Of a stretch of 64,000 nucleotides of DNA, positions 27,001 to 30,000 are shown in pieces. Positions within the stretch are counted from its first letter, which is position 1; each line of letters starts with the position of its first letter. This stretch comes from Candidatus Sumerlaeales bacterium. GTDB taxonomy: Bacteria; Sumerlaeota; Sumerlaeia; Sumerlaeales; Sumerlaeaceae. Made by a program: the position numbers. Where the stretch lies: contig JBBSQY010000013.1 of the NCBI GenBank assembly GCA_038243585.1, forward strand, positions 1-64,000. The letters are read 5' to 3'.

Positions 27001-30000
27001 TTTAAGGGCGAGTTTCGGACACTGGTTAGACTTTTCATAAGGTTAATGCAAGATTCCCGCCAAACTCATACTTGGAAACCTTGTACCACGTACAACCTTA
27101 CTGATAGACAGATTAAATCATTGTGTCGCGCACATATATTAGATTATTTGTTCGTAAATTTAACGCACAAAAATCAGGGCTTTATTCGGCACCTTGAAGG
27201 ATTTCGACACCAATATCTTTAAATGCCTTATAGCCACCGTCAACGGAAACTACATTCTTATAACCCATCTTCTGAAGATTGTCCGCGGCCATGGCAGAGC
27301 GAAATCCGCCGCCACAGTATAGGTGCAGTTCAATTTCCTTATCAGGGAAAATGCGCTCAACGTCTCGTTCAATTATGCCTTTACCTAGATGCACCGCACC
27401 TGTGATGTGCCCGTCACGCCATTCATCATCTTCTCTAACGTCGACTAACCGCGCACCTTTGTTCTTTTCAAGCCTGCTAAGCGCTTCTGAGGGAGACTCC
27501 TCTTTAATTCGGGACTTAGCATCATCAACCAGAGCAAGAAAACCTTCGCTATGCGTCATACATTAGAGCCTTTCATTTCAAATTCAAGAATCTATAGTCG
27601 CCTTCGGGAAATTCCATTGTTACGCACATCTCGGCTATTCGAGATGCGATCCGCGGGGATAACTGCTGTTTAAGCTCCGGCAGACTCCGGTTAGTTGTTA
27701 TGATCGTAGCGGAATCATCTTCATAACGGCGATTGATCAAAACATACAGACGATCAAGCACATATTCGCTCGTTCTTTCGGCACCAAGATCATCCAACAC
27801 GAGAAGATCGGCCCGTCTTGCCATGTCGAAAAGATCGGCCTCATTTTCACTAGAGCCACTGTCCATGCGGCGGCGCAGTTCAAGGAACAATTCCGGCACG
27901 TTCCAATACAGGCCCTTATAACCTTTGATAATCACCTCTTTTAAAATCGCTACCGCAAGATGGGTCTTTCCAGTGCCTTCCCGCCCGGTCATCAACATAC
28001 CTTTACCCGGCTGGTCATGGTTATTACCGCGAAACGTTTTCAGAAAGCCCTTCGCGCCATGCAGAATTTCCTTCTGCTTCTGATTTTTAGCCACGAATCC
28101 GGTCAGATTTTTATTTACGAACTTGCGGGGGATATTAGCGAAAGCATATCGAGTATCGGCCTGACGGGTAAGCCTGCACTGGCATGGAGCAGCCCCAGTA
28201 TCCAATATTACATATCCGGCACCGGCGCATTTAGAGCAGACGGCAGCGTTATCCTGCCTTGCCGACAACTTCCGATTCATTATGCGTCAACCTTAAAACT
28301 TAATAGCATTGTCATCCTCATTACCAGGAAATAACGATATTTCTGCTTCGGCACCCGCATCTCCAGACTTCTTACGTCGGCGAACCAGCTCCTGCATTAT
28401 CCAGTGAAGAGACCTTATCTCATTCTTACGCGCTTGTCGAAATACGCTCCGAACCTCCTGCATCTCGAAGCGTTGAGGCAGCATACGCAACTCGTCTAGA
28501 ATGAACACATTCATTTTTAGGCTAATCGCATCGAAGTATAAATCCACCGTTTCTTTTAACGCCGGATCATTGGTGGGTAAATCGTCTTTCTGGTTGTGCA
28601 GACAGTCATCATAATATCGGAGAAAATCCCCGGCGTGTTCAAACAGGTGAGGATCCTCCTTGCGGATCAGCTCTGGCGGCCGAGGGGTTTGGAGCGGGGT
28701 TACAAGTCGAAATAGCGCAGCTTCATCATCGTTGTCGGGTAGAAAACACGCCATCAAATTCATTTTTCGAAGCGCGGCCGCAGCTCGTCGAGCTTGGTTC
28801 GGAGCCACGCCGCACCGCTTTTGGAGTTCACTAAGCGAGATTTCAACGGTTCCCGGCGCTGAGTTTCGGTCGCAATCCAATTCTACAATTTTCTTGAAAA
28901 AAATCCAGCCAGCGCCGCCTTTTATTTTCGCATTTAAGTGCTCTGGCAGTCCACTATATTCAAGCCACATGGGTGACCATGCCCGGAGATCCCGAGTTGT
29001 CACGAGACCCGACTTATAGATGGTGTCAGATATTCCGTAACAGCCGCTGTCAGCATGGCCGGCATATGTGTAACTCTTTGATTTTCTGTAATATCCCTCC
29101 CAAACTCGACAACCGCAATTTGACGGTCTACAGCTTCAGCCAATGCGTTTCTGTCTGCAACTCCACAAAATATTGCCGCATGCCCTCCCCGCTCCCGCGC
29201 TAGCAATGCGGCTTCCCAAGTAGCCTTGCCACCCATGCTAGTCGCGTCAAACCTGCCCTCTACAGTCAATAGCGTAGTGCCATCCGAAATGGCATCGGAG
29301 AGGTTTGTTAAGTCAAATACCATACGCGCGCCGCACACCAGAGTAGCACCAACTGCAGCAACGGCGAAACCAAGCCCGCCCGCCGCCCCAGCGCCTGGCA
29401 TGGCGCATAATTTCATTCCAGCGCTCCGCTCGATGCGAATACACCAATCACCCATCCATCCCTCCAAGAGTTCAGCCTGATCAGGATCGGCTCCTTTTTG
29501 CGGAGCAAACACTTTAGCCGCGCCGTTAGGGCCGCGCAATGGATTATCGACATCAACGCAGCCGATAATTTCCATGGGAGCAAGCCAGCCACAAAGCGCT
29601 TGAATATCTGGAGAAGGAAGTTCCGGCAAGTCCATGGCGATTCGAGGCTCTGGATATCCCCGTCTGCATTGCCCGCTCAATTCCGCGAGACGCCATAAAA
29701 ACCCAGCGCCCCCATCGCAGGTTGCTGATCCTCCCAGGCCAATATATAACTTCTTCACCCCTGCCATACGCGTAGCATAAACTAAATCTGCCACGCCCGC
29801 CGTACCGCTGATCATAACATTACGACGCGATTTTTCCACGAGTTTCAACCCGCTGCATAAAGCAATTTCTATATACGCGGTTTCATTTTCCGAATCGATT
29901 AAGTAAGGGGCAGAGATGGCATCGCCAAGGGGTCCGGTGCAGGCCGCTTCATTTATGACATAATTGTGACCCTGCCCACACGCTTCCAGAAATCCGTCGC

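What a model noticed while it worked through the whole genome (the two positions that open the first line are those of the whole stretch)
27573..28970. Phylum-wide DnaD-like + DnaC/DnaI-type helicase-loader operon replacing DciA in Sumerlaeota
g01070 (no Pfam, NCBIfam or Swiss-Prot row) is a DnaD/DnaB-like protein (winged helix plus C-terminal DnaD domain) and is encoded directly upstream of g01069, a phage-type DnaC/DnaI AAA+ helicase loader, among housekeeping genes with no mobile-element context. The pair is resident across Sumerlaeota and DciA is missing: a further, phylum-wide domestication of a phage initiator-loader pair at the expense of dciA, giving a diderm phylum a Bacillus-like DnaD/DnaI route.
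Evidence so far: g01070 matches in 72 of 75 phylum genomes, nearly always one copy; g01069 in 69 of 75 at E<=1e-35, one copy each; the two genes are adjacent and co-oriented in 14 of 14 loci read, with varying housekeeping flanks such as pheA and glycerate kinase. DciA (PF05258) matches in 1 of 75 genomes and 0 of 43 high-quality ones, while 7 control genomes ring. AlphaFold model of g01070 (pLDDT 82, call 210): the top two structural matches are DnaD domains 2i5u (Z 7.8, rmsd 2.0, 65 aligned) and 2zc2 (Z 7.0); the N-domain matches RepA/DnaD/DnaB winged helices; ESM Atlas nearest named clusters are DnaB_2/DnaD proteins, score 0.95. g01069: PHROG DnaC-like helicase loader E 2e-61, Swiss-Prot DnaC/DnaI.
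(Added by a program. Inside this text positions count along the whole contig: contig position 1 is position 1 of the stretch shown here. "Call 12" and the like, gene names such as g00115 and contig names such as C1 are that model's own, and its searches are not shown. The text may have been shortened before it was handed on; [...] marks where a part breaks off. The agent that wrote the report below was given it as the finding of a first reader that could run no searches.)

Follow-up and report, generated by a model that had tools for sequence, protein, structure and literature searches.

The report
Phage-derived helicase loader pair replaces DciA
Two uncultured bacterial phyla seem to have lost the ancestral protein that loads the DNA-unwinding helicase and to keep instead a resident gene pair of phage origin, a DnaD-like adaptor and a DnaC-type ATPase: an undescribed, probably ancient case of a known kind of gene replacement, not yet tested in the laboratory.

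Summary
Gene A (28293-28970, minus strand) encodes a winged helix plus a DnaD C-terminal domain. Gene B (27573-28280) encodes a DnaC/DnaI-type AAA+ ATPase with all catalytic motifs. In Sumerlaeota A is in 72 of 75 genomes, B in 71, and DciA in 1; that one contig looks spirochaetal.

Correction: the 'operon' is not phylum-wide. The genes are in tandem in 39 of 69 genomes that have both; five families keep them apart.

Extension: a second phylum, Hinthialibacterota (OLB16), has A in 34 of 35 genomes, B in 34 and DciA in none. A follows ispF or cysE there and cysS in five Sumerlaeota families, which suggests one ancient insertion.

A's remote homologues are the phage initiators directly upstream of phage loaders (19 of 19 hits). 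A lacks the YxxxIxxxW motif that defines DnaD, so it is DnaD-like rather than DnaD. Two A homologues sit without B in Mu-like prophages.

Initiator-plus-loader domestication is published for other lineages; I found no report for these phyla. Function is inferred.

The parts
28293..28970 (-). Gene A: DnaD-like protein of phage-initiator origin, 225 aa from ATG (possible start at GTG 29003, 236 aa)
   Evidence: AlphaFold2 model mean pLDDT 87.8
28641..28970 (-). A, N-terminal winged-helix domain (about residues 1-110)
   Evidence: Top structural match is the plasmid initiator 4pta, Z 7.1, rmsd 3.7, 94 aligned, tied with generic CRP-type winged helices; DnaD N-domain 2vn2 Z 5.6
28362..28577 (-). 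A, C-terminal DnaD_C/DDBH2-type helical domain (residues 132-203); keeps A180, W190 (at the motif Tyr position) and L195, lacks the motif Ile and Trp
   Evidence: Folded alone: 2i5u Z 8.0, rmsd 2.1, 66 aligned; 2zc2 Z 7.3; next row 6.1; Foldseek top hit 2zc2, TM 0.71, E 2.2; sequence links to DnaB_2 proteins
27573..28280 (-). Gene B: DnaC/DnaI-type AAA+ helicase loader, 235 aa
   Evidence: phrog_50 E 2.4e-61; IstB_IS21 PF01695 E 2.2e-18; PRK08116, DnaI and DnaC models all below cut-off; 71 of 75 genomes
28176..28238 (-). B, N-terminal CxxC...CxC putative zinc site (C15, C18, C33, C35)
   Evidence: Present in 37 of 56 Sumerlaeota and 28 of 30 Hinthialibacterota B proteins; absent in families f3-f8 and f16
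27963..27986 (-). B, Walker A (G99-T106, K105)
   Evidence: G102, G104, K105 invariant in 56 sequences
27789..27794 (-). B, Walker B (D163-D164)
   Evidence: Invariant in 56 sequences
27639..27653 (-). B, arginine coupler R210 and arginine finger R214 (spacing as in E. coli DnaC R216/R220)
   Evidence: R214 invariant, R210 at least 90%; DnaC motif roles from PMC8213410 passages
29000..30214 (-). Glycerate kinase, co-oriented upstream housekeeping gene (flank, varies between genera)
   Evidence: TIGR00045 above cut-off, PF02595
27182..27559 (-). Rhodanese-domain gene, co-oriented downstream flank
   Evidence: PF00581 E 1e-19

Best explanation
B is the chromosome's replicative helicase loader and A is its adaptor; together they replaced DciA. 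A temperate phage's replication module (winged-helix/DnaD-domain initiator followed by a DnaC-type loader) settled in the ispF-cysE-cysS region, probably once, before Sumerlaeota and Hinthialibacterota split. Both genes became resident and dciA was lost. Inferred mechanism: DnaA opens oriC (or PriA binds a stalled fork); A, oligomerised through its winged-helix domain, bridges that platform to the loader-helicase complex; ATP-bound B opens or assembles the DnaB ring on single-stranded DNA and hydrolyses ATP to release it. Shown here: family identity of B and intact ATPase motifs, domain homology of A, single-copy residency, mutual exclusion with detectable DciA, shared neighbourhood in two phyla. 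Inferred by analogy: every protein contact, essentiality, and whether A acts at oriC, at restart or both.
For: A 72 of 75 and B 71 of 75 in Sumerlaeota, at the level of the essential helicase DnaB, 71 of 75. A 34 of 35 and B 34 of 35 in the second phylum. DciA over cut-off in 1 of 75 and 0 of 35. A second DciA profile found nothing under E 0.19 in 18,335 ORFs of G000 and only the G074 gene among 14,919 ORFs of all loci, which include 35 recF and 5 gyrB neighbourhoods. Both genes are kept after the operon splits (30 of 69 genomes), as housekeeping genes are. The A tree largely follows host families. B has Walker A/B, sensor I, Arg coupler, Arg finger and a sensor-II-position Arg. In 80 viral loader loci, all 19 ORFs hit by A profiles at E<0.1, out of 2,589, are the gene directly upstream of the loader; 7 of 8 tested carry DnaB_2. 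A follows cysE (24) or ispF (6) in 30 of 30 Hinthialibacterota loci and cysS in 9 of 67 Sumerlaeota loci from five families, including the outlying class. The best B tree found holds both phyla together (36 log-likelihood units higher, p-AU 0.90). Published precedents: PMC5109545, PMC5509034.
Against: No experiment. PF05258 can miss DciA: whole families lack any known loader in PMC11087808. A lacks the motif Ile and Trp that form the DNA-binding patch of DnaD (PMC2978336). Fold Z-scores are 7-8 and Foldseek gave no E<=0.001 PDB hit. The unconstrained B tree leaves the two phyla unresolved among viral loaders, and that tree held no DnaC/DnaI from other bacteria. No close phage donor was found. 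G074 holds the pair and a DciA, and its only dnaA is on the DciA contig. Only 7 of 30 Hinthialibacterota B proteins match my Sumerlaeota-style arginine-finger pattern; I did not align that region separately.
Confidence: 0.72

Rival explanations
1. A very divergent DciA (or another loader) still serves oriC, and the A-B pair is an accessory system used only for replication restart with PriA, in the way DnaT is in E. coli.
For: PriA is present in 5 of 5 genomes tested. A homologues without B in Mu-like prophages fit a restart role, since Mu uses the host restart primosome (recalled). Profile searches can miss DciA (PMC11087808). Two unchecked notes of this scan report DciA beside a DnaC-like gene in an actinobacterial order.
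Against: No DciA signal in 109 of 110 genomes while 7 of 14 controls ring; none beside recF or gyrB; none of 1,426 genomes kept both dciA and a resident dnaC/I in PMC5109545.
Confidence: 0.12
2. B is the loader, but A has been repurposed, for example as a DNA-binding regulator or nucleoid protein, and no longer takes part in helicase loading.
For: A has lost YxxxIxxxW. It is separated from B in 30 of 69 Sumerlaeota and 6 of 33 Hinthialibacterota genomes. Its N-domain scores as well against CRP-type winged helices as against initiators.
Against: It stays tandem with B in 39 of 69 and 27 of 33 genomes over a two-phylum span. The DnaD-domain core (Y145, A180, W190, L195) is conserved in both phyla. 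Upstream partners are kept in every published case of this kind (dopC, OG4911).
Confidence: 0.1
3. A is still an initiator and its locus is an origin of replication, as in the phage or plasmid it came from; or the pair is a prophage or IS21 relic.
For: Initiator ancestry of A; B matches the IstB_IS21 Pfam model.
Against: No iteron array in 4 of 4 loci. Canonical dnaA is over cut-off in 68 of 75 and 34 of 35 genomes. No named phage structural, integrase or replication family among 31 neighbouring ORFs. Single copy with varied housekeeping flanks. No GC-skew switch across the locus in a coarse sample of one single-contig genome, though skew there is weak.
Confidence: 0.04

Closest known systems
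Domesticated dnaC/dnaI loaders that replaced dciA (at least seven events; Brezellec et al. 2016, PMC5109545)
   Same: PF01695-type AAA+ gene, resident, single copy, present across a whole clade, dciA missing.
   Different: Sumerlaeota and Hinthialibacterota were not among the lineages named; this event appears to span two phyla; B is below the cut-off of every NCBIfam DnaC/DnaI model.
DopC-DopE of Cellvibrionales/Oceanospirillales (PMC5509034) and OG4911-VdhL of Vibrionaceae (PMC11087808)
   Same: Phage initiator-like gene kept directly upstream of a phage-derived loader, no iterons left, dciA absent.
   Different: Those loaders are lambda-P-like, not AAA+; DopC ends in a DnaT-type domain, A in a DnaD-type domain.
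Bacillus subtilis DnaD / DnaB / DnaI (PMC2978336, PMC13326638)
   Same: Winged helix plus DDBH2 domain architecture; AAA+ loader with a putative N-terminal zinc site; adaptor gene before loader gene.
   Different: One adaptor, not two. YxxxIxxxW becomes WxxxEL in Sumerlaeota. B is 235 aa with a short CxxC...CxC N-terminus that is lost in some families. No detectable sequence match of A to solved DnaD chains.
Phage initiator-loader replication modules (PHROG 186 DnaD-like, PHROG 50 DnaC-like)
   Same: Same two domains in the same order, same gene order.
   Different: Phage initiators keep the motif Tyr (13 of 13) and Trp (12 of 13) and are longer; A is compact and chromosomal.

Membership tests
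DnaC/DnaI AAA+ helicase loaders (B) | PF01695-type initiator-clade AAA+ domain | tested here: met
   PF01695 67 bits, cut-off 24; phrog_50 E 2.4e-61
DnaC/DnaI AAA+ helicase loaders (B) | Walker A, Walker B, sensor I, Arg coupler, Arg finger, sensor II | tested here: met
   K105, D163/D164, N197, R210, R214, R230 invariant or at least 90% in 56 Sumerlaeota sequences; DnaC equivalents from PMC8213410, matched by motif spacing
DnaC/DnaI AAA+ helicase loaders (B) | Orthology to E. coli DnaC or Bacillus DnaI (curated equivalog cut-offs) | tested here: not met
   DnaI 77 of 228 bits, DnaC 60 of 357 bits: a separate lineage of the family
DnaC/DnaI AAA+ helicase loaders (B) | Binds and loads the cognate DnaB hexamer | not testable with these tools
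   Needs biochemistry
Domesticated (resident) loader replacing dciA | Single copy across the clade, non-mobile context, tree following the host | tested here: met
   A and B trees largely group by host family
Domesticated (resident) loader replacing dciA | dciA absent | tested here: met
   1 of 75 and 0 of 35 by PF05258; second profile negative in G000 and all loci; the exception looks like contamination. Profile search only, no fold-level search
Domesticated (resident) loader replacing dciA | DnaB 'determinant' residue not serine | tested here: inconclusive
   Ser in 0 of 32 Sumerlaeota and 2 of 30 Hinthialibacterota DnaB, but the rule was derived in Gammaproteobacteria (PMC8216460) and chain 2q6t, recalled as Thermus, has Asp there
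DnaD/DnaB (DDBH) proteins (A) | C-terminal DDBH2 / DnaB_2 fold | tested here: met
   2i5u Z 8.0, rmsd 2.1, 66 of 72 aligned; 2zc2 Z 7.3, TM 0.71; profile hits to DnaB_2 proteins at E 5e-6 to 8e-4 in 1.84 billion
DnaD/DnaB (DDBH) proteins (A) | N-terminal winged helix of DDBH1 type with tetramerising helix-strand-helix extension | tested here: inconclusive
   Winged helix yes; DnaD N-domain 2vn2 Z 5.6 and DnaB 5wtn Z 5.6 do not stand above generic winged helices; oligomer state not tested
DnaD/DnaB (DDBH) proteins (A) | YxxxIxxxW motif in DDBH2 | tested here: not met
   Tyr position is Trp in 64 of 67 and 29 of 30; Ile position mostly Glu or Arg/His; Trp position mostly Glu or variable; anchors A180 and L195 kept (motif from PMC2978336)
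DnaD/DnaB (DDBH) proteins (A) | Binds DnaA, PriA and the loader; essential | not testable with these tools
   Needs experiment
IS21 IstB helper ATPase (B) | Encoded next to an IstA transposase, multi-copy, above NF038214 cut-off | tested here: not met
   81 of 200 bits; no recurring transposase among neighbours; single copy

The most novel reading that the evidence does not exclude
One domestication, older than the split of two bacterial phyla, gave them a two-protein helicase-loading system in which a single phage-derived DnaD-domain protein with a rebuilt interaction surface does the work of both Bacillus DnaD and DnaB, at oriC and at PriA forks. Mu-like phages then recaptured this host adaptor, without the loader, to pull the host helicase machinery onto their transposition forks, closing a phage-to-host-to-phage loop.
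Probability: 0.3. Interest if true: 0.72.

Novelty: new variant of a known kind. Interest (0 to 1): 0.55.

Why it matters
It adds a probably very old entry to the short list of helicase-loader replacements, and a shared derived character that would link Sumerlaeota and Hinthialibacterota. It gives a function to an unannotated, near-universal gene of two phyla. DnaD-type adaptors are described as a feature of some Firmicutes (PMC13326638, PMC2978336); a resident one elsewhere, with a changed motif and no second paralogue, is a minimal system in which to ask what the co-domesticated initiator does, a question left open for DopC. The concept itself is published, so the surprise for a specialist is moderate.

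Tried and rejected
Complex prediction of A with B gave 'no answer' (score 0.00); it is no evidence either way.

Searches for a close viral relative of A found none: viral contigs with P0001 and P0128. Annotated phages gave B matches below 60% identity only, about 28-39% in the 30 of 369 rows shown. HMM searches of PDB sequences with A or its C-domain gave only chance hits. Foldseek on PDB gave no E<=0.001 hit.

Weak PF05258 hits (E 0.006-0.09) were rejected: nearly all lie inside long unrelated frames, and the shortest-frame one (L036) overlaps a ribosomal-protein gene on reading.

The DnaB determinant residue was inconclusive. The GC-skew sample of G066 (20 stretches of 20 kb) was weak: the sign changes lie near 2.0 and 2.85 Mb, at neither the pair (1.515 Mb) nor dnaA (1.06 Mb).

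A homologue search with the G074 DciA returned no taxon names. Cluster look-ups of 20 distant A homologues gave no taxon names, so several A clades remain unplaced. The careful tree of A did not finish; the quick tree was used. I found no paper stating that the two phyla are sisters.

Rejected readings: IS21 helper, prophage relic, resident origin, and 'phylum-wide operon'.
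Full report
OBSERVATION. Two co-oriented minus-strand ORFs lie at 28293-28970 (A, 225 aa from ATG) and 27573-28280 (B, 235 aa), 12 bp apart, between a glycerate kinase and a rhodanese gene, with mcsB divergent upstream. 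None of 31 neighbouring ORFs, of 54 called in the window, matches a PHROG family named as a structural, integrase or replication protein at E<=1e-8; the hits are glycosyltransferase, epimerase, ABC transporter and unnamed families. Named homologues of A come from Sumerlaeaceae and Sumerlaeia, which fixes the phylum.

DISTRIBUTION IN SUMERLAEOTA. A is found in 72 of 75 genomes (42 of 43 high-quality), B in 71 of 75 (43 of 43; 69 at E<=1e-35), and DnaB helicase in 71 of 75. DciA passes its cut-off in 1 of 75, while 7 of 14 controls ring. Of 69 genomes with both genes, 39 have them in tandem, 29 on different contigs and 1 divergent; families f8 and f12-f15 never have them in tandem. The missing A in G001 is an assembly effect: B runs off the end of a 4,493-bp contig. 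Keeping both genes after the split argues for housekeeping function rather than a passenger cassette.

THE EXCEPTION. The G074 DciA sits in gyrB/dnaA-dnaN-recF-dciA-rpmH-rnpA-yidC (rpmH confirmed, rnpA and yidC named on reading). G074 has two recF and two dnaN. The recF on this contig is less like the phylum's than the other copy (median 121 vs 167 bits). The contig has GC 0.38 against 0.42 for the contig with the pair, and the largest trinucleotide distance among 11 stretches of 8.5 kb or more; three shorter stretches were further out. Its L34 matches PDB 8fmw best (E 1.6e-18, next 1.7e-14), which I recall as the Borrelia ribosome. Contamination is likely but not proven, because the genome's only dnaA is on this contig.

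IS DciA REALLY ABSENT? dciA usually sits beside recF or gyrB (PMC5109545). In both phyla examined these genes are scattered. A second profile built from 15 DciA proteins hit only the G074 gene among 14,919 ORFs of all loci held (35 recF loci, 5 gyrB loci included) and nothing under E 0.19 among 18,335 ORFs of G000. No fold-level search was possible.

WHAT B IS. B matches phrog_50 'DnaC-like helicase loader' at E 2.4e-61 and PF01695 above cut-off, but stays below the DnaC, DnaI and IstB equivalog cut-offs. Walker A K105, Walker B D163-D164, sensor I N197, R210, R214 and R230 are invariant or nearly so in 56 sequences and map by spacing onto the DnaC Arg coupler, Arg finger and sensor II (PMC8213410). 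A CxxC...CxC site is in 37 of 56 Sumerlaeota and 28 of 30 Hinthialibacterota proteins; most of those lacking it form one clade (support 96).

WHAT A IS. The model (pLDDT 87.8) has a winged helix (best: plasmid initiator 4pta, Z 7.1, tied with generic winged helices) and a four-helix C-domain. Folded alone, the C-domain ranks two DnaD domains first: 2i5u Z 8.0, rmsd 2.1, 66 aligned, and 2zc2 Z 7.3, against 6.1 for the next row; Foldseek also ranks 2zc2 first (TM 0.71, E 2.2). These scores are middling, but sequence evidence agrees. A profile of 67 A proteins found 140 proteins in 1.84 billion; five of the weak hits (E 5e-6 to 8e-4) carry DnaB_2, two of them with the phage O domain. In 80 viral loci chosen only for their loader, all 19 ORFs hit by A profiles at E<0.1, of 2,589, are the gene directly upstream of the loader, and 7 of 8 tested carry DnaB_2. 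The Atlas ranks DnaD-domain clusters next after A's own (0.95, 0.94). The YxxxIxxxW motif of DnaD (PMC2978336) is not kept: Trp replaces Tyr in 64 of 67, and the Ile and Trp positions are polar, while the packing residues A180 and L195 are kept. A therefore works like a DnaD-type protein at best, and is not a DnaD orthologue.

A SECOND PHYLUM. A distant clade of A led to 13 loci in other genomes, one titled SURF_12, which belongs to OLB16 = Ca. Hinthialibacterota (PMC9324843, PMC10066038). In the 35 genomes of that phylum A is in 34, B in 34, DnaA in 34, DnaB in 33 and DciA in 0 (completeness not shown). The pair is tandem in 27 of 33 genomes with both (counted by hand). A directly follows cysE in 24 and ispF in 6 of 30 loci; in Sumerlaeota it directly follows cysS in 9 of 67 loci, from f2, f6, f7, f10 and the outlying class f18. 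ispF, cysE and cysS form one cluster in Bacillus and other bacteria (recalled), so one ancestral site is the simplest reading. In a quick tree of 48 host and 56 viral loaders (24 of 80 viral near-copies dropped) each phylum is a clade (91, 89) and their union is unresolved; the tree with both held together is 36 log-likelihood units better and not rejected (p-AU 0.90). That tree had no DnaC/DnaI of other bacteria, and I found no paper calling the two phyla sisters.

PHAGE RECAPTURE. The only genome with two separate full-length A genes, G058, has its second in a Mu-like prophage, after a MuB-type ATPase (phrog_296, E 1e-37) and Gam (phrog_491, E 7e-28), with no B in the 7.5 kb read. It branches among Sumerlaeota A proteins, with modest support. 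Another A clade occurs next to a phage-type repressor and, in L302, an ORF that reads like a Mu transposase start but has no family hit. Mu relies on the host restart primosome (recalled), so these copies fit a role for A in recruiting the helicase. The base is two informative loci.

MECHANISM. Canonical dnaA is over cut-off in 68 of 75 genomes (69 minus one whose only hit is the giant paralogue; one of the 68 is the suspect G074 contig). PriA is in 5 of 5 tested, and no iterons lie in 4 of 4 A-B loci. So the pair is not an origin, and most likely serves DnaA-oriC and PriA forks. In B. subtilis the order is DnaA, DnaD, DnaB, DnaI, helicase, and the DnaB tail binds the DnaI AAA+ domain (PMC13326638). 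By analogy A is the adaptor and B the loader. All contacts are inferred.

COMPARISON AND NOVELTY. Replacement of dciA by phage dnaC/I is published for at least seven lineages including diderms (PMC5109545), and co-domestication of the upstream initiator for dopC-dopE (PMC5509034) and OG4911-vdhL (PMC11087808). Eight full-text searches listed no paper joining Sumerlaeota, BRC1 or OLB16 with helicase loaders; the library lacks most subscription papers. These names are absent from the PMC11087808 supplements (7 files); Sumerlaeota and BRC1 are absent from the main text of the Blaine preprint. The supplements of PMC5109545 and of the preprint were not seen. This scan's notes held nothing on A.

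WHAT I READ. PMC5109545: parts 1-2 of 5 and passages. PMC5509034: parts 1-2 of 3. PMC11087808: part 1 of 7, passages, supplement search. Passages only: 10.1101/2022.01.24.477630, PMC13326638, PMC2978336, PMC8213410, PMC8216460, PMC9324843, PMC10066038, PMC9213671. PMC10866078: a term search with no hits.

VERDICT. Interest 0.55.

Noticed in passing
G000:C49:7638-11747 (-); L337:1639-5748: A 1,370-aa protein with an N-terminus that reads like a primase-type zinc finger (no Pfam hit), long TPR arrays and a C-terminal DnaA ATPase domain (PF00308 E 6e-65) without the DNA-binding domain IV. A second, ATPase-only DnaA match occurs in 66 of 75 Sumerlaeota genomes (counted by hand, mostly in frames of 1,200-2,200 aa) and in 0 of 35 Hinthialibacterota. 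Possibly a phylum-specific DnaA regulator or scaffold; deserves its own study.
   Followed up: partly
L107:44-4643 (G058:C5); L302; L303: A homologues without B inside Mu-like prophage early regions (MuB-type ATPase, Gam, papain-like peptidase, excisionase-like gene; or beside a phage repressor).
   Followed up: partly
G074:C426 (L341): Intact dnaA-dnaN-recF-dciA-rpmH-rnpA-yidC-jag cluster with spirochaete-like L34 in a Sumerlaeota bin; probably a contaminant contig.
   Followed up: yes
L078, L080, L081, L043-L072, L332-L336, L378, L379: The classic dnaA-dnaN-recF-gyrB cluster is fully scattered in both phyla; in three Sumerlaeota loci dnaA is followed by a gene that reads like a GspG-type pseudopilin. 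In G066 the weak GC skew changes sign near 2.0 and 2.85 Mb, away from dnaA.
   Followed up: partly
B genes of families f3-f8 and f16 (e.g. L089-L098, L128-L132): The N-terminal CxxC...CxC site of the loader is absent in these families; several f7/f8 DnaB proteins also match the family model only from position 34-35, hinting at co-change of loader and helicase N-termini.
   Followed up: no
Proteins P0170, P0174, P0175, P0182-P0184, P0173, P0188, P0190, P0198, P0201: Proteins sharing only A's N-terminal domain; two tested match phage DnaD-like/initiator PHROGs, and others carry an extra N-terminal HTH_17 domain. Candidates for the donor lineage.
   Followed up: partly
G015:C170:68169-68672; G063:C101:673-1320; G041:C78:38774-40138: Second, more distant copies of a DnaC-like ATPase or of DnaB, probably prophage-borne.
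   Followed up: no
window 30271-31335 (+): McsB-like protein arginine kinase transcribed divergently from the glycerate kinase-A-B-rhodanese run, followed by a galE-like epimerase; no mcsA or clpC next to it on reading.
   Followed up: no
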